A stretch of 64,000 bases of DNA from Gammaproteobacteria bacterium (GCA_965116495.1 OZ220696.1:64001-128000); one strand, 5' to 3'. Positions 32,556-45,224 are shown, counted from the first letter of the stretch. Numbers and translations: made by a program. Notes: generated by a model from the letters alone, not told the origin.

Positions 32556-33197
32556 TTACCGGATATTGCCGCCTTGATGCAATAATTGCTTAAGCAGGTT
32601 CTCAAAATAAGCCTGCTGACGGCCATAATTATGCCGGGCAGAGACCAGGATCGCGGCAAGCTGTTCCAGTGTGTCATCAAAGTTGTCATTGACTACCAGG
32701 TAGTCATATTCATGATAATGCTCTATTTCGCTGACAGCATCACGCAGGCGCCGGCGGATATTCCGTTCATCATCGCCCCGTCCCTTCAGGCGTTCTTCCA
32801 GCGCCGCAAGCGAAGGCGGCAGGATATAGATATTGATGGCGTCTTTCATGAGCGCCCGCACCTGTTGAGCGCCCTGCCAGTCTATCTCCAGGATGATGTC
32901 CTTCCCGTCAGCCAGTTGTTCTTGCACCCAGGCGCGCGAGGTGCCGTAAAGATGATCAAATACGTTAGCGTGCTCCAGGAACCGGTCCTGTTCAAGCAGG
33001 GCCTGAAATTTGTCTTCACTGACAAAGAAATAATCCATCCCGTGCTTCTCATTGGGCCGCGGGGGCCTGGTGGTATGCGAAATGGAAACACATAAATCGG
33101 GAATGGCATCCACCAGCGCCCGCACCAGGGAGGTCTTCCCGGCACCGGAAGGCGCGCAGATAATGAATAGGATGCCTTTGCGTTTGGAGGTGGGCAT
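32556..33197 (-). CDS. gmk: Guanylate kinase
   Basis: APSGAGKTSL, SHTTRPPR, YGTS, LEIDWQGA. Confidence 0.97.
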   Translation of the reverse strand: MPTSKRKGILFIICAPSGAGKTSLVRALVDAIPDLCVSISHTTRPPRPNEKHGMDYFFVSEDKFQALLEQDRFLEHANVFDHLYGTSRAWVQEQLADGKDIILEIDWQGAQQVRALMKDAINIYILPPSLAALEERLKGRGDDERNIRRRLRDAVSEIEHYHEYDYLVVNDNFDDTLEQLAAILVSARHNYGRQQAYFENLLKQLLHQGGNIR

Positions 33198-35788
33198 TAA
33201 TTTCCTGCCATACGATCAGTCAGTTCTTTCCGTGCTGATTTCTGAAGCCTTTTTTCATTGATTTGATTACGAATATCCTCGGCTACCTCAAGTATTTCAG
33301 CGGGTGCTCGCACCGACTCGCCTGCATTTTGGCGCAGGGCGATAACCAGGGGTTCCAACGTAGCTGATTTTGCGCTGTCACTGGACAGAATATTGACCAA
33401 ATCATACTCTGATAGGCCTGATGTAATCAAGTCAGGCACAATGCTGATCATCCCCTGCATCATTGTTTCAACGTCGGGCATGAACGCGGTATAGGCAAGA
33501 TGAAACGCTTCCAATGCGGCCTGTGTCTCCCCCTGTAACTGCAATGCTTCTGTTCGAAGACACATTACTCGCCATCTGAATATGTTTCCTTCTTCGCCGC
33601 TCAAGTATTTCCCAAGCCTTTGTTCGAGTTCTTCACATATTTCCAGGGCCTTATGTACGTTTTTGAGCCGGATTAGGCACTTACTTTTGTCGCTTAATGC
33701 TTGGGCAACCCACATCTGCATATCCCGTGCGCTACTTGTGCCAAAACGTCCGACGAATTCATCACAGGTGGTAATTGCGGCTGTATAATCACCAAGTTTT
33801 GCTAGCGCATTTGCTTCATGAACAAATGCGGCAGCAACCCACCTTTGAATATCAGGCACTTCACTCGCACCAAAACGCTCAACCACCGCGGCGTAGGCAG
33901 AAATTGCAGCTTCTAATTCGCCCAGTTTACTTAGTGCATTTCCTTTCTCGAACAATGCGACGGCAATGTCCTGCTGGATATTTGGAACGTTATCGGCACT
34001 GAATTGCTTAACAACCTGAGCGTAGACTGCGATTGCCGCGTCGAAATTACCGAGATTTTCCAGTGCCCTGCCTTTGTTAATCAAAGCTGAAGCTGCCAAT
34101 CTTTGAATGTCTTGTGCGCTACCGGACTCAAACCGTTCGACTACTCCGTCATAGACTGCTATAGCAGTATCGAAATCATTGATCTTTTCTAGCATCTCGC
34201 CTTTGTCCACCAAAGCTACGGTAACCCACCATTGGATCTCCATTGCGTCACTGGTACCAAAACGCTCTACAACCTCGTCGTAGGCTACGAGCGCTGTTTT
34301 GAAATCATCAAGTTCTCGTAACGCATCACCCTTAAGGCACAAGGCGATGGCAACCGTTAGCTGGATATTTGGATCGTCACTGACTCCAAAACGCTCGACA
34401 ACCTCATCGTAGGCCGAGATAGCTCCCCCGAAATCGTTGAGTTCTTTCCTCTCTCTTCCTTTTACGATTAATGTAAAGGCGACTTGCAACTCCAGGTGGT
34501 TAGAATAAAGACTCTTAATCTGTGGGTGTTCGGTAGCTGCCCTCCTCAAGCCCTCATGAATGACGGCGGATTTTGCCATATCCCGGATCAGACTATGGAA
34601 AATCTCAGTTTGTTCCTTTTCGCTATAAAACGTCACAATAAAGCGGATTAGATTTTGCACAACAGCCGCTTCATCGCGTTCGCGACGCAGTTTGTAATAA
34701 ATGCTGTAAAGACGTTCGACAGCGCTATACAAGCGCTTTTTACCGCTTCCTTCCACGATTACTGCACCCCGATTTATCAATCGACCAAGCATTGTTGATA
34801 CAGTCCGAACGTCCATGCGCGCTCGCTCCGCAATCTCACCGGGTTTGGATGGTTGCCAGAGATCGAGCACAGCAACGTAAACTCGCCGTTCGGTCTTTGC
34901 CAGCACTTCGAGATGACCACGAAAATACTCAGTGTGCTCATCGATAAGCGTAACCAGTTCTTCCATCAGTTGACGCAGGGATCGATGTTGTGTGAAGCCG
35001 GCAATGATCACCAACAGACGGGGATTGCCACCAGTCAGTATTTGAAGCGGTCTGATCTCCCGCCCTCGAACTGAATCGCCGCTGATTACCTGCCATAAAC
35101 AACCACATTCTTCGGTGGTCAGCGGTTCCAGGTCGATGATCCGGAACAACTCGAAGAACGGTTGGCTGGCATCGTCCAGACCTTTGAACCGGTTAGTGGC
35201 GGAAGCAAGCAAAATGACCTGTGGTTCCGACTGCAATATTGCCCGTAATTTCCAGCCAAAATCTTTATCCAGGTTCTCAAGTGATTGCAGGTTCTCGACC
35301 ATGAGGACAAGTTTCTTGCCCAATTGATCTGCGGTATCCAATACGGTCGCGCGGACGCGCTCCTCAAGTGACTGCTCGCGCCACTGTCTGCTGAGGTCCT
35401 CGTAAGTGCTTCGTAATTGGGCGGCGAGGGCGGGGTGTTGTGCGGCAGTCTCCCGCGCAAGGTGGAACAATGTTTCAAGCCAGAAGTCAGCAATATTTGA
35501 AATCTCCTGATTCTCTTCCATGAAACGGACCGGCATCAGATGCTCGGAGAACTCGTTCTTTGTGCGTATTTCGGCCGCTACACGAGCCAGCAGCATGGTT
35601 TTCCCCCGTCCACGAGGCGCGGTGATCAGGGTATGTTGGCAGGATGGTGATCCGATATTGTCCCGCAGCACATCAAGTATGGTATCGCATTCGTGCTTCC
35701 TTACTACGAACTGTTCTACCACTTCTACATCGGACTGGAATGCCCCCGGATTAAATTTACGGATTGGACGCTCTGGGATACTTGCCAT
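33197..35788 (-). CDS. STAND-like P-loop ATPase + winged-HTH + 43-aa TPR-like repeats
   Basis: Walker A APRGRGKT, atypical Walker B LVLMVEN, GGNPRL, HTH (PGEIAERARMDVRTVSTMLGRL), about 7 repeats of AI.AYD.VVERFG.S....IQ..VA.AL..KG; likely start is ATG 35788. Confidence 0.85.
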   Translation of the reverse strand: MASIPERPIRKFNPGAFQSDVEVVEQFVVRKHECDTILDVLRDNIGSPSCQHTLITAPRGRGKTMLLARVAAEIRTKNEFSEHLMPVRFMEENQEISNIADFWLETLFHLARETAAQHPALAAQLRSTYEDLSRQWREQSLEERVRATVLDTADQLGKKLVLMVENLQSLENLDKDFGWKLRAILQSEPQVILLASATNRFKGLDDASQPFFELFRIIDLEPLTTEECGCLWQVISGDSVRGREIRPLQILTGGNPRLLVIIAGFTQHRSLRQLMEELVTLIDEHTEYFRGHLEVLAKTERRVYVAVLDLWQPSKPGEIAERARMDVRTVSTMLGRLINRGAVIVEGSGKKRLYSAVERLYSIYYKLRRERDEAAVVQNLIRFIVTFYSEKEQTEIFHSLIRDMAKSAVIHEGLRRAATEHPQIKSLYSNHLELQVAFTLIVKGRERKELNDFGGAISAYDEVVERFGVSDDPNIQLTVAIALCLKGDALRELDDFKTALVAYDEVVERFGTSDAMEIQWWVTVALVDKGEMLEKINDFDTAIAVYDGVVERFESGSAQDIQRLAASALINKGRALENLGNFDAAIAVYAQVVKQFSADNVPNIQQDIAVALFEKGNALSKLGELEAAISAYAAVVERFGASEVPDIQRWVAAAFVHEANALAKLGDYTAAITTCDEFVGRFGTSSARDMQMWVAQALSDKSKCLIRLKNVHKALEICEELEQRLGKYLSGEEGNIFRWRVMCLRTEALQLQGETQAALEAFHLAYTAFMPDVETMMQGMISIVPDLITSGLSEYDLVNILSSDSAKSATLEPLVIALRQNAGESVRAPAEILEVAEDIRNQINEKRLQKSARKELTDRMAGN

Positions 35789-35802
35789 CGATCTTGCTGC
35801 GT

Positions 35803-37029
35803 TTATTTGTTGTCCGGAACGCGCGTCGGAAGGGGGATATGATGCCCGCGAAAACGCGCCGACCACCAATCCTTCAACAATCTCGATGGGAAGCGATAAC
35901 CATCTCCGGCAGGACTGAGATAGCCATCGTGTACGAGGACTTCGAGAGTATCCATGGTACGTCGGGACACATCATCAACTACATTGGAGTACAACTGTTC
36001 AAGGCATCGTCGCGCATCATGGGTGAACAAATCCTGGGTAGCCGCCTCTGCAAGAATTTCCATCGCTATGGAATAGTTTTCATCTTCGAGTGCTTCTTTC
36101 AAGCGTGTCTCATAATGCACCAGGTCGTTCTGTCCGGGAGGTCCGAGAAGCTCAGTACGATAGACCGTCCCCACATCCTCAACTAAAATTCGGTCTTGCC
36201 CTCGCATCACGGTGAAATCCCGCATACGTGCGAAAAAAGATTGGACGTGATGGGGAATGCCAACGCCTAGAGTTTCGTATACCTCGCCAGCTACCCCGTT
36301 CTCTACGTTCAGTTCGTAATTCTCTGCCAGAAGATTAAAACAGTCGATACTGGTATCTCGATCCCAGGGCGCAAGGCGATAGGGATAAAGATGGTTGATC
36401 CGGTCAGATATACCCAGTCTGCGCACAAGGGGTTCAAGTCCGATACTTCCCGAAATGATCAGGACCGGTGAATTCTCCCCATGAGACTGGAGCGCCTTGC
36501 GCAACCAACTCAAAAATTCATCAACCCGTCCCGCGTCGCCATCATGCTGAACCATCCGTTTAAGGAAAATGGGAAGCTCGTCAATTACCAGAAGTACCGG
36601 CTTATCGTGCATGGAGCAGGCATTCAGTAGTTGCTCCCCGTGACGTCGCCAGCTTCCAGTATCCAGCCCGGCGCGAATCTTCACGCTGAAATCGTAAGCA
36701 TTAATTTCCTCAACGTTGACATTCAACCAGCGTTTCATTCCGTTGGCAAAACGGGACGATATCGGGCGCACCGGATGTACTGCACGGGCAATTTCAGCGA
36801 TTGCGTCTTCAGCACAGGTTGCACCTTCGACGTCGGCAAAAAGAAAAGCCCAGTCCGAGGTTTCAAGGCGACGTCCCAACTCCATAACGACACTGGTCTT
36901 TCCCATGCGCCGTTGTCCTGTGAGTAGTACGTGATTATGGTCTTTCACGTAATTTTCCAGTATTCTCAAATCGGCCTCGCGATCAAAAAAGTCATCTCCG
37001 CAGACCCAGCGACCGGTTGACGATCTCAT
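35803..37029 (-). CDS. STAND-like/archaeal-type AAA ATPase with C-terminal winged helix
   Basis: FFDRE, Walker A GQRRMGKTS, Walker B LLVIDE, SGSIGL, GIPHHVQ, L.HDGYL...YRF...LLKDWW; ATG 37029 preceded by AAGGAG. Confidence 0.85.
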   Translation of the reverse strand: MRSSTGRWVCGDDFFDREADLRILENYVKDHNHVLLTGQRRMGKTSVVMELGRRLETSDWAFLFADVEGATCAEDAIAEIARAVHPVRPISSRFANGMKRWLNVNVEEINAYDFSVKIRAGLDTGSWRRHGEQLLNACSMHDKPVLLVIDELPIFLKRMVQHDGDAGRVDEFLSWLRKALQSHGENSPVLIISGSIGLEPLVRRLGISDRINHLYPYRLAPWDRDTSIDCFNLLAENYELNVENGVAGEVYETLGVGIPHHVQSFFARMRDFTVMRGQDRILVEDVGTVYRTELLGPPGQNDLVHYETRLKEALEDENYSIAMEILAEAATQDLFTHDARRCLEQLYSNVVDDVSRRTMDTLEVLVHDGYLSPAGDGYRFPSRLLKDWWSARFRGHHIPLPTRVPDNK

Positions 37030-37047
37030 GATATTTCGCTCCTTATG

Positions 37048-37103
37048 CAACAATTTTGTTGAATTAAGCCATACAACAAAATTGATGTCAACAAAATTGT
37101 TGA
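37048..37103. promoter_or_regulatory. Three copies of the palindrome CAACAA-NN-TTGTTG (putative operator array)
   Basis: caacaattttgttg 37048-37061, caacaaaattgatg 37074-37087, caacaaaattgttg 37089-37102, immediately upstream of the ATPase RBS. Confidence 0.7.
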
Positions 37104-37153: not shown

Positions 37154-38263
<1,110 letters not shown>

Positions 38264-38338
38264 CCTTGAATAGCTTACCCAAAGCTGCCCACAGATTGAC
38301 TGAATTCCGAAAAAGAATGGTTTATCATTGTTGGCAGC

Positions 38339-38689
38339 ATGGGTTTACTGACCACACACGTTCTGGATACGGCGCATGGCTTGCCCGCCGCGGGCATGAC
38401 GGTCGAATTGTTTTCGATTGATGGTGACGCGCGTTCCCTGGTGAAGACCGTAACGACCAATTCGAACGGGCGTTGCGACGAGCCGATGCTTGCTGGAGAA
38501 GCATTCAGGGTGGGCTCCTGGGAACTGGTGTTTCACGTAGCCGACTATTTCACTTCCCGGGGGGTCGAGTTGTCTGACCCGCCGTTTCTCGACCGGGTGA
38601 CTTTGCGTTTCGGCATTGCCGCCGCTGAGCATTACCATGTTCCCCTGCTGGTCTCGCCCTGGAGCTACAGCACGTATCGCGGAAGCTGA
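38339..38689 (+). CDS. uraH: 5-hydroxyisourate hydrolase
   Basis: LTTHVLD, GR, HYHVPLL, C-terminal YRGS. Confidence 0.96.
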
Positions 38690-38693
38690 CTTC

Positions 38694-40199
38694 ATGTCCG
38701 CAACAGAGCAAAAAGACGAGGATAACGGGACAATACGTTTCCTGCTGGATAACCGCGTGCATGAAGTTATGAATGCCGCGCCGACAACCACGGTATTGAA
38801 TTACCTGAGGGAGGAATTGCAACGCACAGGTACCAAGGAAGGCTGTGCGGAAGGGGATTGCGGCGCCTGTACCGTCGTCGTTGCCGAAGCGGACGCGGGA
38901 GGGGTACGCTTCCGTTCCATCAATTCCTGTATCCAGTTCCTCCCGACCCTGGACGGCAAGGCGTTATTCACCGTGGAGAGTTTGAAGAAGATCAGCAACG
39001 CTGCGTTACATCCGGTGCAGCAGGCCATGGTGGATTGCCACGGTTCCCAATGCGGTTTCTGTACACCGGGTTTTGTCATGTCGTTGTTTGCCCTGTACAG
39101 GAATAATGCCGGGCCGGAGCGGGCGGAGATCGATGACGCCCTGTCGGGCAACCTGTGCCGGTGTACCGGTTACCGGCCTATCATCGATGCGGCAGCCAGG
39201 ATGTATGACTACGGGGAGGACCTTGTCGACGAAGGGGAACTGGCGCGCCGGCTTGAGGAGATACGCCCGGATATTTCCCTGGAGTTGCCGGCACGCAGTC
39301 ATTCCCGCGCCGAAGCAGCGGACAGGTCCGGTAGTGCCGAACCCGACAGGTACTTTGCCCCGGCAAGCCTGTCCGAACTGGCGGATTTGCTGGTACGCTA
39401 TCCCGGCGCCACGATACTGGCCGGCGGTACCGACGTGGGCCTGTGGGTTACCAAGCAATACCGCGAGCTTCCCGTCATCATCTACATAGGCCGGGTGGGT
39501 GAACTGGATTATGTTGAAGAGACTGAAGACCGCCTGGAAATAGGCGCTGCCGTGAGTCTTACCGATGCGTTTACTGCCCTGGAAAAACACTATCCCGACC
39601 TGTCTGAGATCATGCGCCGGTTTGCCTCGCCTCCGATCCGCAATGCCGGTACCCTGTGCGGCAATATCGCCAACGGTTCGCCTATCGGCGATACGATGCC
39701 GGCGCTGATCAGCCTGGGTGCCGTACTGGTCTTGCGTTGCGGCGACCAGGTACGCGAATTACCCCTGGATGAATTTTACCTGGGTTACCAGGTAAAGGCC
39801 TTGCAGCAATCCGAGTTTGTCCAGGCAGTACGGGTTCCATTGGCGCGGGGAACCGGCCAATATTTCCGTTCCTACAAGATTGCCAAACGTTACGACCAGG
39901 ATATCTCCTCTGTCTGCGGCGCTTATTTCATACAGCTTGAGGCAGACGCCGTTACCGATGCACGCATCTGTTACGGCGGTATGGCGGCGGTCCCGCAACG
40001 GGCGAGACAATGTGAAGCTGCATTACGCGGCCGGCCCTGGAGTGATGCGACAATTGAAACGGCGTTGCAGGCCCTGGCGGAGGATTACCAGCCGTTGACC
40101 GATATGCGCGCGTCGGCCCAATACCGCGCACGCGTAGCCGGCAACCTGTTAAAAAGGTTCTACCTTGATACCACGGGCGAAGAAGTTTCGATATGGTAA
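38694..40199 (+). CDS. xdhA: Xanthine dehydrogenase small (2Fe-2S/FAD) subunit
   Basis: GTKEGCAEGDCGACT, HGSQCGFCTPGF, GNLCRCTGY, AGGTD, NGSPIGD. Confidence 0.95.
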   Translation: MSATEQKDEDNGTIRFLLDNRVHEVMNAAPTTTVLNYLREELQRTGTKEGCAEGDCGACTVVVAEADAGGVRFRSINSCIQFLPTLDGKALFTVESLKKISNAALHPVQQAMVDCHGSQCGFCTPGFVMSLFALYRNNAGPERAEIDDALSGNLCRCTGYRPIIDAAARMYDYGEDLVDEGELARRLEEIRPDISLELPARSHSRAEAADRSGSAEPDRYFAPASLSELADLLVRYPGATILAGGTDVGLWVTKQYRELPVIIYIGRVGELDYVEETEDRLEIGAAVSLTDAFTALEKHYPDLSEIMRRFASPPIRNAGTLCGNIANGSPIGDTMPALISLGAVLVLRCGDQVRELPLDEFYLGYQVKALQQSEFVQAVRVPLARGTGQYFRSYKIAKRYDQDISSVCGAYFIQLEADAVTDARICYGGMAAVPQRARQCEAALRGRPWSDATIETALQALAEDYQPLTDMRASAQYRARVAGNLLKRFYLDTTGEEVSIW

Positions 40200-40218
40200 T
40201 GAGTGAGCGGATGCCAAC

Positions 40219-42624
40219 ATGACTGACAACAGGACTGTTTTCGCTGCAGGCGCCGCCTTGCCCCATGAAAGTGCGCACCTGCATGTGAGCGGGGAAGCCG
40301 ATTACGTAGATGATCAGCCTGAGCCGCGCGGCCTGCTGTACGCCGCCATCGGTTACAGCGCGAGGGCCCATGCCCGGATCAGGCATATGGATTTCTCTGC
40401 CGTGCACGCCGCTCCCGGCGTAGTGGAGGTCGTCAGCGCGGAAGATATCCCCGGCGCCAACAATCACGGTCCCATACTGGCCGATGATCCCGTTTTTGCC
40501 GACGGTCTGGTCGAATACGTGGGACAATCCGTTTTTGCCGTGCTGGCCGATTCGGTGCTCAATGCCCGCAAGGCCGCGCGCCGGGCCAGGATCGAGTATG
40601 AAGATCTGCCGGCCATCCTGGATATGGACAGCGCCATGGCGCAGCAATCCTTCGTGCTCCCACCCCAGACCATTGTCCGCGGTCAACCGGAACAGGCGAT
40701 TGCCGGGGCAACCCATCAATTACAGGGCCGGTTGCGGGTCGGCGGGCAGGACCATTTTTACCTGGAAGGGCAGGTCGCCGCGGCATTTCCGCAGGAAGAC
40801 GGCGCCATGCTGGTCCATGTTTCAACCCAGCATCCGACCGAGGTGCAACACCTGGTTGCCCATGCATTGCAGGTTTCTTCGAAGGACGTGGTGGTCGAAT
40901 GCCGGCGCATGGGCGGTGGTTTCGGCGGCAAGGAAACCACGCCGGCCCTGTTTGCCGTCATTGCCGCCGTGTCCGCGCACAAGACCGGCCGGCCGGTAAA
41001 ACTGCGGGTGGACCGTGATGACGACATGACCATTACCGGCAAACGGCACGGTTTCCGTATCGACTACCGGGTCGGCTTCGATGCGCGCGGACTGATCGAG
41101 GGCATCGACCTGGAACTGGCCTCCGACTGCGGGCGTTCGGCTGACCTGTCAGGCCCCATTAACGTGCGCGCCATGTTCCATAGTGATAACAGTTATTTCC
41201 TCGACCATGTGCGGATTGTCTCCCATCGCTGCAAGACCCATAAGGCGTCAAACGTAGCCTTCCGGGGTTTCGGCGGCCCCCAGGGGATGATGGGTATCGA
41301 GAACGTCATCGACGAGATTGCCCGGTTTCTTGATAAGGACCCCCTGGACGTACGTAAAATCAACTTCTACGGCAAGGAGAACCGGAACGTGACGCCGTAC
41401 GGCATGACGCTGGAAGACAATATCATCCATGAACTGGTAGACCAGCTTGAAAAACAATCCGCCTACCGGGAAAGGCGCCGGCAGGTGGAGGCATTCAACG
41501 CCGGTGCTGGCGTACTCAAACGGGGTATCGCCCTCACCCCGGTCAAGTTCGGGATTTCATTCACCGCTGCGTTCTACAACCAGGCCGGCGCCTTGCTGCA
41601 CGTTTATCGCGACGGCAGCATCATGCTGAACCATGGGGGTACCGAGATGGGGCAGGGGCTTTATACCAAGGTCGCCCAGGTGATCGCCGAGGAGTTCCAG
41701 GTGGACCGGGACAGGATAAAATGCACCGCCGCCAATACCGGGAAAGTGCCGAACACCTCCGCAACCGCGGCTTCGTCCGGCAGTGATCTGAACGGCATGG
41801 CGGCCCGGGCGGCTGCCGTTGCGATCAGGACGCGCCTGGCCGGGTTTGCCGCGCAAAAATATGGAGTGCCGGTGGAACAGGTCCGCTTCACGCCGGCCGG
41901 CGTGCGGGCCGGCACGGAGCTGATCGATTTTGCCGAATTGACCAACCAGGCTTACCTGGCGCGAATATCACTGTCTTCCACCGGTTACTACCGCACTCCC
42001 AAAATCAAATATGACCCGGATACCCTCACCGGCCGGCCGTTTTTCTATTTTGCCTACGGCGCAGCCGTGACCGAGGTGCTGCTGGATACTCTGACCGGCG
42101 AATATAAAATACTGCGCGTGGATATCCTGCACGATGCCGGGGAGTCGCTAAACCCGGCCGTCGACATGGGGCAGGTGGAGGGCGGATTCCTGCAGGGGGC
42201 CGGTTGGTTGACCAGCGAGGAGTTGTGGTGGGACTCAGCCGGCAAACTCATGACCCATGCCCCGTCCACCTACAAGATCCCGACTGGCAGTGACTGGCCG
42301 CCGGAATACAACGTGGAACTGATCGACTGGGGCAGGAACAGGGAAGAGACGATATACCGCTCCAAAGCGGTGGGCGAACCGCCTCTTATGCTCGCCATAT
42401 CGGTTTTTCACGCTTTGAAAGACGCCATAGCCGCGCGGCAGGGTGGCCGGGCCAGACCTGTATTACATGCGCCTGCCACACCGGAGCAGGTATTGAACAG
42501 TATTGAAGAACTGCAGCAGCGCCAAAAGGAGTCGTGCCAGAAGGGGACACGCCAAGAGGGGACAGAATTTAATTCTGTCCCCAGTGACCCCCCCGGTGAC
42601 TCCACCAGTGGCCGCCTCCAGTGA
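40219..42624 (+). CDS. xdhB: Xanthine dehydrogenase molybdopterin-binding subunit
   Basis: HESA.LHVSG, GGGFGGKE, AFRGFGGPQG, HGGTEMGQG, SKAVGEPP. Confidence 0.96.
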   Translation: MTDNRTVFAAGAALPHESAHLHVSGEADYVDDQPEPRGLLYAAIGYSARAHARIRHMDFSAVHAAPGVVEVVSAEDIPGANNHGPILADDPVFADGLVEYVGQSVFAVLADSVLNARKAARRARIEYEDLPAILDMDSAMAQQSFVLPPQTIVRGQPEQAIAGATHQLQGRLRVGGQDHFYLEGQVAAAFPQEDGAMLVHVSTQHPTEVQHLVAHALQVSSKDVVVECRRMGGGFGGKETTPALFAVIAAVSAHKTGRPVKLRVDRDDDMTITGKRHGFRIDYRVGFDARGLIEGIDLELASDCGRSADLSGPINVRAMFHSDNSYFLDHVRIVSHRCKTHKASNVAFRGFGGPQGMMGIENVIDEIARFLDKDPLDVRKINFYGKENRNVTPYGMTLEDNIIHELVDQLEKQSAYRERRRQVEAFNAGAGVLKRGIALTPVKFGISFTAAFYNQAGALLHVYRDGSIMLNHGGTEMGQGLYTKVAQVIAEEFQVDRDRIKCTAANTGKVPNTSATAASSGSDLNGMAARAAAVAIRTRLAGFAAQKYGVPVEQVRFTPAGVRAGTELIDFAELTNQAYLARISLSSTGYYRTPKIKYDPDTLTGRPFFYFAYGAAVTEVLLDTLTGEYKILRVDILHDAGESLNPAVDMGQVEGGFLQGAGWLTSEELWWDSAGKLMTHAPSTYKIPTGSDWPPEYNVELIDWGRNREETIYRSKAVGEPPLMLAISVFHALKDAIAARQGGRARPVLHAPATPEQVLNSIEELQQRQKESCQKGTRQEGTEFNSVPSDPPGDSTSGRLQ
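42558..42582. repeat. 25-bp REP-like palindrome, copy 2, inside the xdhB 3' end
   Basis: ggggacagaatttaattctgtcccc; perfect inverted repeat around a central T. Confidence 0.82.
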
Positions 42625-42650
42625 GATGGTGGCTTAAACCAACAACGGGT

Positions 42651-43820
42651 ATGAACAATTGTTTCTCGTCACTGCTCGATGTTGCCGGCAGCGATCAGCC
42701 CTGTGTACTGGTGACGGTTGCCCATGTGGCAGGTTCGGCGCCGCGCGAAGCAGGTGCGCGCATGATCGTGACCCCTGCGCAGGTATTGGGCACTATCGGC
42801 GGCGGGAATCTTGAATTTGAAGCCATACGCATTGCACGGTCCCGGCTGGATGAACTGCAAACGCCGGGTTCGCAACGCTTTATCGAATTGTTCCCCCTCG
42901 GTTCCATGCTGCAGCAATGTTGCGGCGGTGCGGTCTTCCTGCATTTTGATGTAGTAAGGGACGGACAGGCCGGTTGGGTATCCGTAGCCGCTGATAGCGA
43001 ACAGAACAACATCCCCGCGCTATTGGTGAGCCGAACAATACAAAATGAGTCGGATTCTGCTGCGCCATTCCCGCGCAAGCGGGAATCCAGTGGAATCACT
43101 TCCGCTGCAAGCGGACTGTATTCCGGCGCGGGCCCGGCTTCGCTTACCGAAAAAATGATGTTCACGGAAACAGGTATTACGGGTAGCCTGGGCGATAAAG
43201 ACCTGGACGATCTCGCGGCGGCAAAAGCGGCCGCGCTCCTGTCCGCACAGGGAGCGCCGCAAACGTCCCTGCTGCATCCCCTGGTCGAGACGCAATCGAC
43301 CCTGCCCGATATCTCCGATGTCCTGTTTTTCGAAGCGATCATGCCCTGTGATTTCCAGGTCGTATTGTTCGGCGCCGGTCACGTGGGCCGCGCCCTGGTG
43401 AGTGCCCTGGCCGGCGCCACCCCTTGCCGTATCACCTGGGTGGACAGTCGCGCCGGGCAGTTTCCGCAGGGACTGCCGTCCAACGTAGAGCCCCGGCTCA
43501 CCGATAACCCTGTCGCGGAAATCGACGGCCTGTCCGGGCAAGCGTATTGCCTGGTCATGACGCACAGCCATCAACTCGACCAGGACCTGTGTGAAGCCCT
43601 CTTGCAGAGGGATGATCTCGCTTTCATCGGCTTGATCGGGTCGGCAACCAAACACCGGCGTTTTGTGCAGAGACTGGGCGAAAAAGGCCTGGGTGAACGG
43701 CAACTGGAACGGCTCACCTGTCCCATCGGCATTCCCGGCATAGAATCAAAAGAACCCGGCGTCATCGCCGTGTCCGTTGCCGCCCAGTTGCTTAAAATTA
43801 GATCCGCAGATTTAAATTAA
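42651..43820 (+). CDS. xdhC: Xanthine dehydrogenase accessory protein XdhC
   Basis: GSAPREAGA, GTIGGGNLE, QCCGG, FGAGHVG, MTHSH.LD, GLIGS..K. Confidence 0.92.
   Translation: MNNCFSSLLDVAGSDQPCVLVTVAHVAGSAPREAGARMIVTPAQVLGTIGGGNLEFEAIRIARSRLDELQTPGSQRFIELFPLGSMLQQCCGGAVFLHFDVVRDGQAGWVSVAADSEQNNIPALLVSRTIQNESDSAAPFPRKRESSGITSAASGLYSGAGPASLTEKMMFTETGITGSLGDKDLDDLAAAKAAALLSAQGAPQTSLLHPLVETQSTLPDISDVLFFEAIMPCDFQVVLFGAGHVGRALVSALAGATPCRITWVDSRAGQFPQGLPSNVEPRLTDNPVAEIDGLSGQAYCLVMTHSHQLDQDLCEALLQRDDLAFIGLIGSATKHRRFVQRLGEKGLGERQLERLTCPIGIPGIESKEPGVIAVSVAAQLLKIRSADLN
43067..43090. repeat. ATTCCCGC-N4-GCGGGAATCC REP-type palindrome, in frame within xdhC
   Basis: attcccgcgcaagcgggaatccag encodes FPRKRES. 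A half copy, gtcattcccgcg, is at 39298-39309 in xdhA. Confidence 0.75.
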
Positions 43821-44005
43821 TCCGCAGATGACGCAGATGTATAAGAATTATAAGTTCAGAAAAAATGTGACCGCCCCTGTTCCAGGTCAAACCTGCGCGT
43901 CAATTATATTTGATAAGAAATCCTGGCTAACCGAGTCCTGTTTCCCGTAACCGTAATATTTATATTATCATCTGCGTAAATCTGCGCTTGTGCTGCGGAT
44001 AAATT
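43801..44005. repeat. Intergenic element bounded by inverted CGCAGAT (9-bp period) repeats
   Basis: Left atccgcagat...atccgcagatgacgcagatg; right catctgcgtaaatctgcg...ctgcggataaa. Related single arms gtaatctgcggataaa are at about 16938 and 57302. Confidence 0.7.
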
Positions 44006-44006
44006 T

Positions 44007-45224
44007 ATGATCGAAGCATACATATTTGAATGGTTGAACCTGCTGCTGCGCTGGGCACACCTGATCGTGGGTATTGCCTGGATCGGTTCGTCATTTTATT
44101 TCGTCTGGCTCGATTTGAATCTGAACATCCCTCCCCGGGATCCGGAAGACGAGGCGGTTGCCGGCGACCTGTGGGCGGTACACGGTGGCGGTTTTTACCA
44201 TGCGCAGAAGTACAAGGTGGCGCCCGGTAAATTGCCCGAGCCCCTGCACTGGTTCAAGTGGGAGGCCTATACTACCTGGTTGACCGGCTTTGCCTTGCTG
44301 GTGCTGATGTATTACGTCAATGCTGATGTGTACCTTATCGATAAAACCGTCGCTAATATAACCCCGGACATGGCTGTTGCCGCAAGCATCGGTTTCATCG
44401 TGGCGGCCTGGGTGATCTACGACCTGTTATGCAGGACCGGCCTGAGTGACTCCTGGATTGGACTGGTCGGCTTTTTATTCCTTGTTGCCGCAGTTTATTT
44501 CATATCGGACCTGTTCAGCGGGCGCGGCGCCTATATGCAAATCGGCGCCATGCTGGGCACCATCATGGCCGCCAATGTACTCATGATAATAATTCCTGGT
44601 CAGCGGGAACTGGTGCAGGCCAAACTGCGCGGCGAAGAACCGGACCCGTTACCAGGTCTCAAGGCCAGACAGCGTTCCGTGCACAACAACTACATCACCC
44701 TGCCGGTGCTGTTCGTCATGTTGAGTCCCCACTATCCCATGACCTACGGACATGAATACGGCTGGTTGCTGCTCATCGCCATCTTCATCGCCGGCGTGTT
44801 GATCCGGCATTTCTTCAACCTGAGAAACCAGGGCAAAACAGCGCCGGCGCTGCTGGTTATCGCCATCATCATCCTGGTACTGGCCGCGTTCGTGGCCGCC
44901 CCGAAATCCAGGGCCATCCCTGACCGGGAGATGGCGGCACAGCCCGCGCAAACCGCCGAACCCGTTTCATTTGCGCAAGTGAACCGGGTAATCGTACAAC
45001 GCTGCAACATCTGCCACTCCGCTGAACCAAACCATCCTACCGCTCCCGTCGCGCCGAACGGCGTGATGTTCGACACCCCGGACCAAATCAGGCAATGGGC
45101 GCAGCGCATCCATGACAGGACCGTCACCAACAGGACCATGCCCCTGGCAAACCTGACGCAGATGACCGGCGAAGAACGTCGACTCGTCGATCGTTGGTAT
45201 AAGACGGGCGCCGAAATAGAATAG
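44007..45224 (+). CDS. puuD: Urate hydroxylase PuuD (membrane urate oxidase with cytochrome c domain)
   Basis: LLRW.H...GIAWIGSSFYF, VHGGGFY, WFKWEAYTTW, RSVHNNY, heme motif CNICH; purine cluster context. Confidence 0.92.
   Translation: MIEAYIFEWLNLLLRWAHLIVGIAWIGSSFYFVWLDLNLNIPPRDPEDEAVAGDLWAVHGGGFYHAQKYKVAPGKLPEPLHWFKWEAYTTWLTGFALLVLMYYVNADVYLIDKTVANITPDMAVAASIGFIVAAWVIYDLLCRTGLSDSWIGLVGFLFLVAAVYFISDLFSGRGAYMQIGAMLGTIMAANVLMIIIPGQRELVQAKLRGEEPDPLPGLKARQRSVHNNYITLPVLFVMLSPHYPMTYGHEYGWLLLIAIFIAGVLIRHFFNLRNQGKTAPALLVIAIIILVLAAFVAAPKSRAIPDREMAAQPAQTAEPVSFAQVNRVIVQRCNICHSAEPNHPTAPVAPNGVMFDTPDQIRQWAQRIHDRTVTNRTMPLANLTQMTGEERRLVDRWYKTGAEIE

What the first reader, a model, noticed from the sequence alone, without database searches (positions are those of the whole stretch)
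33197..37029. Paired STAND-like ATPases (ATPase-wHTH + ATPase-wHTH-TPR): candidate sensing or defence system with no obvious effector
Seen: a two-gene operon with a 14-bp gap. Gene 1 has a canonical Walker A/B (GQRRMGKTS, VIDE). Gene 2 has Walker A APRGRGKT but a degenerate Walker B (MVEN), an HTH, and about seven diverged 43-aa TPR-like repeats. The sequence looks more AT-rich than the flanking core genes. No nuclease, TIR, SIR2 or protease domain is visible. Established: STAND NTPases with TPR sensors include antiviral Avs proteins, and tandem ATPase pairs occur in the MNS clade of STAND NTPases with largely unknown function. Inference: a heteromeric active/inactive ATPase switch in which the repeats sense a ligand and the output is DNA binding.
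Basis: partly seen in the sequence, partly recalled or inferred. Interest (0 to 1): 0.72.

Follow-up and report, generated by a model that had tools for sequence, protein, structure and literature searches.

The report
Self-repressed sensor–executor ATPase pair
Two linked ATP-switch genes travel together between many bacterial phyla behind their own palindromic control site; the larger one carries a fast-changing repeat array and likely keeps the smaller one in check until it senses an intruder, which would make this an untested bacterial counterpart of the paired immune receptors of plants.

Summary
Observation confirmed. Gene A (408 aa) folds like the archaeal STAND ATPases SSO1545/Paby2304. 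Gene B (863 aa) is ATPase–winged helix–43-aa TPR array–cap, with an intact Walker A and an EN Walker B invariant in 78 aligned relatives. B follows A in 78 of 80 loci, and no third gene is conserved. The repeats are mosaic and vary from 0 to 17. Decay is one-sided: A is broken beside an intact B core in 14 loci, B is missing beside an open A once, and close strains have deleted A. So B likely restrains A. Defence-neighbour enrichment is weak (about twofold, borderline). No library or paper searched names the pair; the A–B complex prediction gave no answer. Best reading (0.45): a self-repressed sensor (B)–executor (A) surveillance module with unknown ligand and output. The scan has met this cassette on other DNA at least six times.

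The parts
35803..37029 (-). Gene A, 408 aa: bare MNS-type STAND ATPase (NTPase, helical domain, winged-helix domain) with no effector or sensor domain
   Evidence: model pLDDT 94; best folds SSO1545 2fna Z 25.6, rmsd 3.4, 332 aligned, and Paby2304 2qen Z 25.5
36895..36918 (-). Walker A of A (residues 38-45)
   Evidence: R40, G43, K44, S46 invariant in 75 sequences
36577..36591 (-). Canonical Walker B of A (residues 147-151)
   Evidence: D150 100%, E151 98% of 75
33197..35788 (-). Gene B, 863 aa: STAND ATPase, winged helix, arm, 43-aa TPR array, conserved helical cap
   Evidence: model pLDDT 89.7; best fold PH0952 6mfv E 1.3e-10
35597..35620 (-). Intact Walker A of B (residues 57-64)
   Evidence: R59, G60, G62, K63 invariant in 78 sequences
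35291..35308 (-). Altered Walker B of B (hhhhEN, residues 161-166): catalytic Glu replaced by Asn
   Evidence: E165 and N166 invariant in 78 sequences
34715..34903 (-). Winged helix of B (residues 296-358), likely binder of the operator
   Evidence: Pfam TrmB; R324, S331, R336, L337 invariant and a basic wing; B's most conserved domain, dN 0.01 / dS 0.34 against G014
33587..34489 (-). Seven 43-aa TPR-like repeats (residues 434-734), likely sensor
   Evidence: 129-nt period; 0-17 repeats in 63 relatives; mosaic identity
34061..34421 (.). Segment of repeats 1-4 that close strains replace by a diverged sequence of equal length
   Evidence: contigs of runs X6 and X7 skip 361 nt 'same length, diverged', with flanks about 98% alike
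33245..33481 (-). Conserved C-terminal helical cap of B (residues 770-848), kept whatever the repeat number
   Evidence: in the same frame as the B core in 75 of 80 loci
37048..37102 (.). Operator array: three CAAC-N6-GTTG palindromes (37048-37061; 37074-37087 with one mismatch; 37089-37102), the last two at a 15-bp period
   Evidence: only site in G000 within the training score range (44 bits; next 17.7; training minimum 25)
37086..37091 (-). TTGACA -35 hexamer formed by the junction of two boxes
   Evidence: read from the sequence; TTGACA within 200 bp upstream in 57 of 78 relatives (no control run); the promoter scan did not list this site because the window's -10 is poor
36112..37032 (.). 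921-bp stretch (start codon and NTPase domain of A) deleted in close strains that keep the operator, B and gmk
   Evidence: joint 36111-37033 in contigs of runs X6 and X7; X7 record 16 spans gmk, B and the joint
32556..33197 (-). gmk (host gene, then rpoZ, spoT, recG); its start overlaps B's stop, and the upstream motif seen at empty sites is absent

Best explanation
The cassette is a mobile two-gene unit in which B likely represses the shared promoter and likely holds the bare ATPase A in check, until B's variable TPR array would bind a foreign ligand and release A as the executor of a costly response. Shown: pairing, motifs, folds, operator, repeat mosaicism, one-sided decay. Inferred step 1: B binds ATP but hydrolyses it poorly (Walker A and sensor-1 R200 kept, catalytic Glu replaced by Asn). 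Inferred step 2: B's winged helix binds each CAAC-N6-GTTG palindrome as a dimer and covers the -35. Inferred step 3: A and B meet in a heteromer, as plant sensor/executor NLR pairs or ORC/Cdc6 subunits do. Inferred step 4: a ligand, most likely a phage or mobile-element protein, opens B, lifts repression and frees A to oligomerise and burn ATP or clamp a host target, arresting the cell. Ligand and output are not identified.
For: Pairing: B directly follows A in 78 of 80 A-selected loci; one miss is a contig end. A sequence lies upstream in 44 of 44 B-selected loci with room. No third gene recurs in more than 7 of 78 loci. Operator: exact box in 75 of 79 upstream regions against 8 of 920 controls; double box in 69 of 79 against 3 of 920; single site in G000. 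More distant clades carry other repeat arrays of 15-17 bp period. B's winged helix is its most conserved part. Sensor variability: 0-17 repeats; P0272 is 98-100% identical outside the repeats but 68% in repeats 1-3, while P0275 is 91% in the NTPase but 96-97% in the repeats; segment replacement in runs X6 and X7. One-sided decay: A broken beside an intact B core in 8 of 80 loci and in 6 of 18 further hand-picked copies from the 44 carrier genomes. B is missing beside an open A once (L055, whose A has lost conserved motifs). 14 vs 1 gives p=0.001. Symmetric test: 7 of 44 B-selected vs 1 of 70 A-selected, p=0.005. Close strains have deleted A. Analogy: autoregulated bicistronic Abi/TA operons with winged-helix repressors on inverted repeats (AbiE, PMC3985639, passages); sensor/executor NLR pairs (PMC8813719, passages).
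Against: No effector domain and no known way for A to kill. A search for longer forms of A found 5 proteins and no effector fused to a close relative (the tool calls this weak evidence). Defence/TA neighbours: 23 of 148 nearest genes against 9-11 of 131 at random sites of the same set of genomes (p=0.025-0.10); 15 of 41 vs 7 of 32 loci (p=0.21); no excess over genes 6-10 kb away (11 of 97, p=0.45) (hand-classified). The window's copy sits among housekeeping genes. dN/dS in the repeats stays below 1 (0.29 and 0.53). One-sided decay also follows if B is simply a repressor, or useful alone. Two copies keep an intact A although B has lost its repeats or cap (L162, L163). The loci are not independent, and some breaks may be assembly errors.
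Confidence: 0.45

Rival explanations
1. B is a ligand-responsive STAND transcription factor (MalT/PH0952-like), and A is an accessory ATPase that loads or strips it from DNA. The output is transcription of whatever lies downstream.
For: B's best fold match is PH0952, described as a predicted transcription factor (PMC6468293, passages). The winged helix is strongly conserved. B persists after loss of A, and two orphan B genes exist (L164, second B in L179). In the window B is coupled to gmk.
Against: No second operator in G000; no conserved downstream cargo; the first downstream gene is on the same strand in only 40 of 73 loci, and within 100 bp in 15 of 73. A regulator whose only target is itself has no output.
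Confidence: 0.25
2. A selfish addiction module of the toxin-antitoxin kind: A is a toxic ATPase, B is antitoxin and repressor, and the repeats drift without sensing anything.
For: Coupled bicistron, autoregulation, patchy spread (6 of 41 related genomes; 7 of 401 in the phylum), up to several copies per genome, TA neighbours, one-sided decay, apparent capture of the gmk promoter in 4 of 23 genus genomes.
Against: A 300-900 aa mosaic TPR array, varying most at helix-A positions 5, 8, 9, 12 and 15, is costly and unusual for an antitoxin. No mobility gene or terminal repeat was found.
Confidence: 0.13
3. A symbiosis factor: the TPR protein interacts with a eukaryotic host's proteins.
For: A run labelled 'sponge metagenome' (X7) holds a relative about 98% alike. 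Several named carriers (Ca. Palauibacter, Boseongicola sp. SB0662) are sponge-associated lineages (recalled). TPR proteins are enriched in sponge symbionts (recalled).
Against: Cytoplasmic ATPase architecture with a DNA-binding domain. Related pairs occur on plasmids of Moraxella osloensis, Clostridium estertheticum and Segatella copri, the Moraxella one near a Qat gene. No secretion genes recur nearby.
Confidence: 0.08
4. An ORC/Cdc6- or TnsC-like DNA-loading pair of a non-autonomous mobile element, with the boxes as origin or end sites.
For: Cdc6/Orc1 and TnsC are among A's fold matches (Z 15-19); variable insertion sites.
Against: No transposase, integrase or replication gene recurs. The boxes lie at one end only, over a -35. 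No relative was found in viral contigs (one pattern only), and only 8 distant ones on plasmids.
Confidence: 0.05

Closest known systems
SSO1545 (PDB 2fna) and Paby2304 (2qen); Pfam ATPase_2 PF01637; MNS-type STAND ATPases
   Same: Whole-length fold of A (Z 25.6 and 25.5, 332 residues aligned); 58 of 75 A-family members match PF01637 at E<=1e-3
   Different: 17-20% identity; A is below the PF01637 cut-off (26.8 vs 33.2 bits); A is tied to a TPR-bearing partner and an operator array
PH0952 of Pyrococcus horikoshii (6mfv) and MalT-type STAND regulators
   Same: NTPase-WHD-arm-TPR order; best Foldseek match of B
   Different: PH0952 is a single protein with an N-terminal ArsR-like effector (PMC6468293, passages). 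B has no N-terminal effector, has an EN Walker B, and has a second ATPase gene
nSTAND2 two-gene system (Kaur et al. 2021, PMC8195603, section on GT4 read)
   Same: Mobile two-gene operon of one active-looking and one impaired STAND; predicted counter-invader role
   Different: [quoted passage not shown] Here Walker A is intact, the fusion is TPR with no effector, and PF20702 does not match
Avs/AVAST and bNACHT antiviral STANDs (Lee et al. 2026, PMC13581612; abstract, three sections and passages read)
   Same: STAND plus variable TPR sensor
   Different: The Avs families described there lose toxicity when their effector domain is mutated. Here there are two genes, no effector domain and an operator. 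No Avs model matched in PADLOC 2.0
Plant sensor/executor NLR pairs (RRS1/RPS4) and NAIP/NLRC4
   Same: Linked pair of STANDs with division of labour (PMC8813719, passages; PMC9975940, abstract start). Restraint of the executor by the sensor (RGA5/RGA4) is recalled, not read
   Different: A different STAND clade; those executors carry TIR, CC or CARD domains, A carries none; no operator
AbiE type IV toxin-antitoxin/abortive infection
   Same: Bicistron repressed by a winged-helix protein on inverted repeats covering the promoter (PMC3985639, passages)
   Different: No sequence or fold relation; AbiEii is a nucleotidyltransferase

Membership tests
STAND NTPase, MNS-type (ATPase_2 / SSO1545-like) | AAA+ NTPase, helical domain with GxP, C-terminal winged-helix domain | tested here: met
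   models and fold searches; P259 of A invariant; G254, P256, R257 of B conserved
STAND NTPase, MNS-type (ATPase_2 / SSO1545-like) | Score above the curated PF01637 cut-off | tested here: not met
   26.8 bits vs 33.2; only the generic AAA_16 and AAA_22 pass
Npun2340/2341 family of the MNS clade (Leipe et al. 2004) | Sequence membership of that family | tested here: inconclusive
   Paper not held; family named in one passage of PMC8195603. AAA_35, recalled as its Pfam proxy, matches 19 of 75 A members weakly, best E 1.3e-6
nSTAND2 two-gene system | Match to the nSTAND2 model PF20702 | tested here: not met
   0 of 75 A members at E<=1e-3; absent from the precomputed Pfam lists of 120 B homologues
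nSTAND2 two-gene system | Impaired partner with eroded NTP-binding motifs, fused to GT4 or HEPN | tested here: not met
   B's Walker A is invariant and its C-terminus is TPR plus cap
iSTAND (MoxR-vWA ternary systems; BrxB) | Loss of Walker A/B and of the helical bundle; MoxR/vWA or BREX neighbours | tested here: not met
   Walker A and helical domain kept; no such recurring neighbours; definition from PMC12839542 passages
Avs/AVAST | Effector domain fused to STAND-TPR; match to Avs models | tested here: not met
   No effector family; no Avs model among PADLOC hits for 75 A members and 12 further proteins
Avs/AVAST | Activation by a phage protein and anti-phage activity | not testable with these tools
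   needs phage challenge or co-expression screen
Toxin-antitoxin system | Bicistron with operator over its own promoter | tested here: met
   (sequence evidence only; repression not measured)
Toxin-antitoxin system | One product toxic, the other neutralising | tested here: inconclusive
   One-sided decay fits but does not prove toxicity
MalT/PH0952-type STAND transcription factor | Regulon outside its own operon | tested here: not met
   No second operator in G000 (one genome tested)

The most novel reading that the evidence does not exclude
A bacterial sensor-executor NLR pair: a non-hydrolysing STAND receptor with a shuffling TPR array both represses the operon and cages an effector-less STAND ATPase, which is itself the killing or arresting unit once a foreign protein is sensed. 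It would be an immune module that needs no fused enzyme effector, and it is spread across at least nine phyla.
Probability: 0.3. Interest if true: 0.88.

Novelty: new variant of a known kind. Interest (0 to 1): 0.62.

Why it matters
Characterised bacterial STAND receptors carry their own effector. This compact, widespread pair has none, yet shows arms-race-like variation of its sensor and one-sided gene loss. It gives a direct test of whether a bare STAND ATPase can be an executor and whether sensor-executor pairing, known from plants and animals, arose in bacteria too. It would also give a first function to the long-uncharacterised SSO1545/ATPase_2-like proteins. The defined operator makes a reporter assay for ligand discovery straightforward.

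Tried and rejected
Complex prediction of B(1-440) with A and ATP: verdict 'no answer', score 0.00 in two runs, controls not folded; it counts neither for nor against binding. No RNA holder was listed for the stretch, so expression and co-transcription with gmk are untested. No relative was found in viral contigs with the one pattern used. PADLOC gave only weak P-loop or HTH hits (mad8, PDC-S01, PDC-S27, Csa3/CasR), rejected as membership. A and B are not a recent duplication: BLASTP found nothing significant, and hhalign aligned only the 46 columns around Walker A. A regulon in G000 was rejected. A downstream-cargo model was rejected. A conserved arginine finger was not established: position 210 of A varies, and B's R216 is not kept in distant partners. 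A universal 15-bp operator period was rejected: it holds in the near clades, while distant ones peak at 16-17 bp or show none, and my shuffles covered lag 15 only. No terminal repeats were seen around the cassette. The adenosine deaminase next door belongs to the purine-breakdown cluster and is adjacent to gmk at empty sites, so RADAR was rejected. The ESM Atlas returned only unnamed ATPase clusters. Eight literature searches listed no paper on this pair. Leipe et al. 2004 is not held. The clade tables in the supplement of PMC13581612 were too large to read (only part 1 of a source-data file was seen) and may already contain this clade with a defence score. The source data of PMC8195603 Fig. 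6 were not read.
Full report
Observation. Both genes are present as described. Gene A runs 37029-35803 on the minus strand (408 aa) and gene B runs 35788-33197 (863 aa), 14 bp apart; B's stop overlaps the start of gmk by one base. A has canonical Walker A and B motifs. B has an intact Walker A, EN in place of DE at Walker B, a TrmB-type winged helix and TPR matches. Six 129-nt repeats are in register and a seventh is degenerate. No effector family appeared in Pfam, PADLOC or NCBIfam. The lower G+C is real but modest: 0.499 against 0.547, the 10th percentile. Each gene is single-copy in the complete genome G000.

What the proteins are. The model of A (pLDDT 94) matches SSO1545 and Paby2304 over its whole length (Z 25.6 and 25.5), ahead of a wheat resistosome (20.3), ORC2 (18.8) and Cdc6/Orc1 (17.8). 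A is therefore a bare MNS-type STAND core, with about ten residues before the NTPase and no sensor. The model of B (pLDDT 89.7) is NTPase, winged helix, arm, TPR solenoid and helical cap; its best match is PH0952. In 78 aligned B proteins Walker A, E165 and N166 are invariant and the sensor-1 arginine R200 is 96% conserved. I infer ATP binding with poor hydrolysis. More distant partners show DN, EN, EE, DS and similar; the weakly related 298-aa Segatella partner has a canonical DE and no repeats. A and B share only the Walker A region.

The pair is the unit. Of the best 80 of at least 393 genome loci found with A's alignment, 78 have B directly downstream; one miss is a contig end and one (L055) lacks B. 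Conversely, 44 of 44 new B-selected loci with room upstream hold A sequence; 9 of 53 lacked room. Pairwise identities of A and of the B core correlate (rho 0.89, 63 loci; shared descent contributes). The 63 intact A proteins fall in nine phylum groups, and the window's A is 73% identical to a Latescibacterota protein (quick tree only). Among relatives 6 of 41 genomes carry it, and 7 of 401 in the phylum. In the genus it lies directly upstream of gmk in 4 of 23 genomes, while in 13 the deaminase gene and gmk are adjacent with no insert. No third gene recurs in more than 7 of 78 loci (1028 ORFs called by my own script). Distant pairs (20-26% identity) occur on 8 plasmids; the three inspected, from Segatella, Clostridium and Moraxella, each have a B-like partner.

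Earlier notes of this scan pointed to it and I tested it. Upstream regions carry CAAC-N6-GTTG palindromes: an exact box in 75 of 79 regions against 8 of 920 other upstream regions of the same loci, and two boxes at a 15-bp period in 69 of 79 against 3 of 920. The junction of two boxes makes a TTGACA. A plausible -10 follows in 45 of 78 relatives (uncontrolled), but the window's own -10 is too poor for the promoter scan. A weight matrix finds only this site in G000. Distant clades have different repeat arrays in the same place. B's winged helix is the likely binder: invariant recognition-helix residues, a basic wing, and 89-100% identity in eight close homologues. Binding itself is not shown.

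The sensor varies. B is 515-1431 aa long with 0-17 detectable repeats, while the cap stays. Close homologues are mosaic in the repeats, and contigs of two runs replace 361 nt of the repeats by a diverged segment of equal length between flanks about 98% alike. dN/dS against G014 is 0.03 for the winged helix, 0.12 for A and 0.29-0.53 for the repeats; none exceeds 1.

Decay is one-sided. In the 80 A-selected loci both genes are intact in 68. A is broken beside an intact B core in 8, both are broken in 1, one has A intact with B running to the contig end, one is uninformative, and one has an open but eroded A without B. A census of 44 carrier genomes with both genes flagged further copies, of which I fetched 18 by hand plus two distant loci. 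Six have a broken A with intact B, two have an intact A with a B that lost repeats or cap but kept its core, two are orphan B genes, one pair is collapsed, and one A fragment stands alone. Fourteen against one gives p=0.001. The symmetric comparison, 7 of 44 against 1 of 70, gives p=0.005; five further B-selected loci (two events) have A split but passed my 85% rule. Contigs in runs X6 and X7 delete 921 bp of A while keeping the operator, B and gmk, and intact-A strains occur in the same runs. Caveats: several loci are near-copies and some frameshifts may be assembly errors, though errors should hit the equally long B core as often. The seven genus copies checked are all intact in A and in the B core. 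The simplest reading is that A without the B core is costly.

Defence context is weak. I scanned the first 148 of 246 nearest neighbours (11 near-duplicate loci dropped), 148 of 163 distant neighbours, and 131 of 159 genes at 40 random sites in 25 carrier genomes, and classified them by hand. Defence or TA families made up 23 of 148, 11 of 97 (same loci) and 9-11 of 131. This gives p=0.025-0.10 per gene, 0.21 per locus, and 0.45 against the distant set. These genomes are rich in such genes anyway. The first downstream gene is on the same strand in 40 of 73 loci, which argues against regulated cargo.

Mechanism. I commit, at 0.45, to a self-repressed sensor-executor module. B, ATP-bound and slow to hydrolyse, sits on the operator and restrains A. 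A foreign ligand on the TPR array releases both brakes, and A then acts as a growth-arresting ATPase or oligomer. Every step after the anatomy is inferred. The structure predictor gave no answer on A-B binding (see Tried and rejected). The rivals are a STAND transcription factor with an accessory ATPase (0.25), a selfish addiction module (0.13), a host-interaction factor (0.08) and a mobile-element loader (0.05).

Relation to known systems. It works like AbiE in regulation and may work like plant sensor/executor NLR pairs in logic. It is not an Avs, nSTAND2 or iSTAND by the features tested. Two-STAND operons are known in principle: nSTAND2 in PMC8195603 (section read), and the Npun2340/2341 family (named there; its content is recalled, not read). 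I therefore class it as a new variant of a known kind. Papers seen: PMC13581612 (abstract, sections 5, 11, 15, passages, part 1 of one source-data file); PMC8195603 (section 15, passages); PMC6468293, PMC8813719, PMC3985639, PMC12839542 and 10.64898/2026.10.19.760177 (passages); others as search listings only. Eight searches listed no description of the pair, but unread supplements of PMC13581612 may hold its clade.

Verdict. The system is real, conserved, unnamed and directly testable; its immune role is plausible but unproven. The scan has reported the cassette on other genomes at least six times. The short notes returned do not mention the one-sided decay, the strain-level deletion of A, the segment exchange in the repeats or the apparent capture of the gmk promoter. 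Interest 0.62.

Noticed in passing
window 33197-33260 and loci L096, L103, L104 versus L090-L109: Where the cassette is inserted, B's stop abuts or overlaps the gmk start, and the GTATACT motif that precedes gmk at most empty sites is gone. gmk-rpoZ-spoT-recG may now depend on the cassette's self-repressed promoter, which could lock the cassette in place.
   Followed up: partly
window 37199-45224: Purine-breakdown cluster (adenosine deaminase-like, HIU hydrolase-like, xdhA/B/C-like, urate oxidase-like; names recalled from the translations), divergent from the cassette.
   Followed up: no
window 45360 onward (+): An ORF beginning like an AlbA_2/Schlafen-type DNA-binding domain (recalled resemblance), seen in the gene-caller test.
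   Followed up: no
P0392, P0239: Single-record fusions: A joined in frame to a whole B (1092 aa), and A's core joined directly to TPRs and a B-type cap (700 aa). These may be natural fusions or frameshift artefacts.
   Followed up: partly
L179 (G045:C1:4549900-4558500), L014: A second B gene about 1.5 kb downstream of the pair, without its own A; in L179 its Walker A did not match the family pattern.
   Followed up: partly
L053:7304-17006: The pair lies between an hsdM-like and an hsdS-like gene of a type I restriction-modification locus.
   Followed up: no
L152:4865-8045 (Segatella copri plasmid): Minimal version: WYL regulator, A-like ATPase and a 298-aa ATPase-winged-helix partner with a canonical Walker B and no repeats.
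   Followed up: partly
L154:1596-12877 (Moraxella osloensis pNP7-2): A distant pair lies between Qat genes and a kinase on one side and a dUTPase-led operon of hypothetical genes on the other; a culturable source for testing.
   Followed up: partly
L171, L176-L178: A distant clade keeps similar boxes, but its B carries 42-aa TPR-type repeats of another kind and lacks the cap, so the sensor array has been exchanged wholesale.
   Followed up: no
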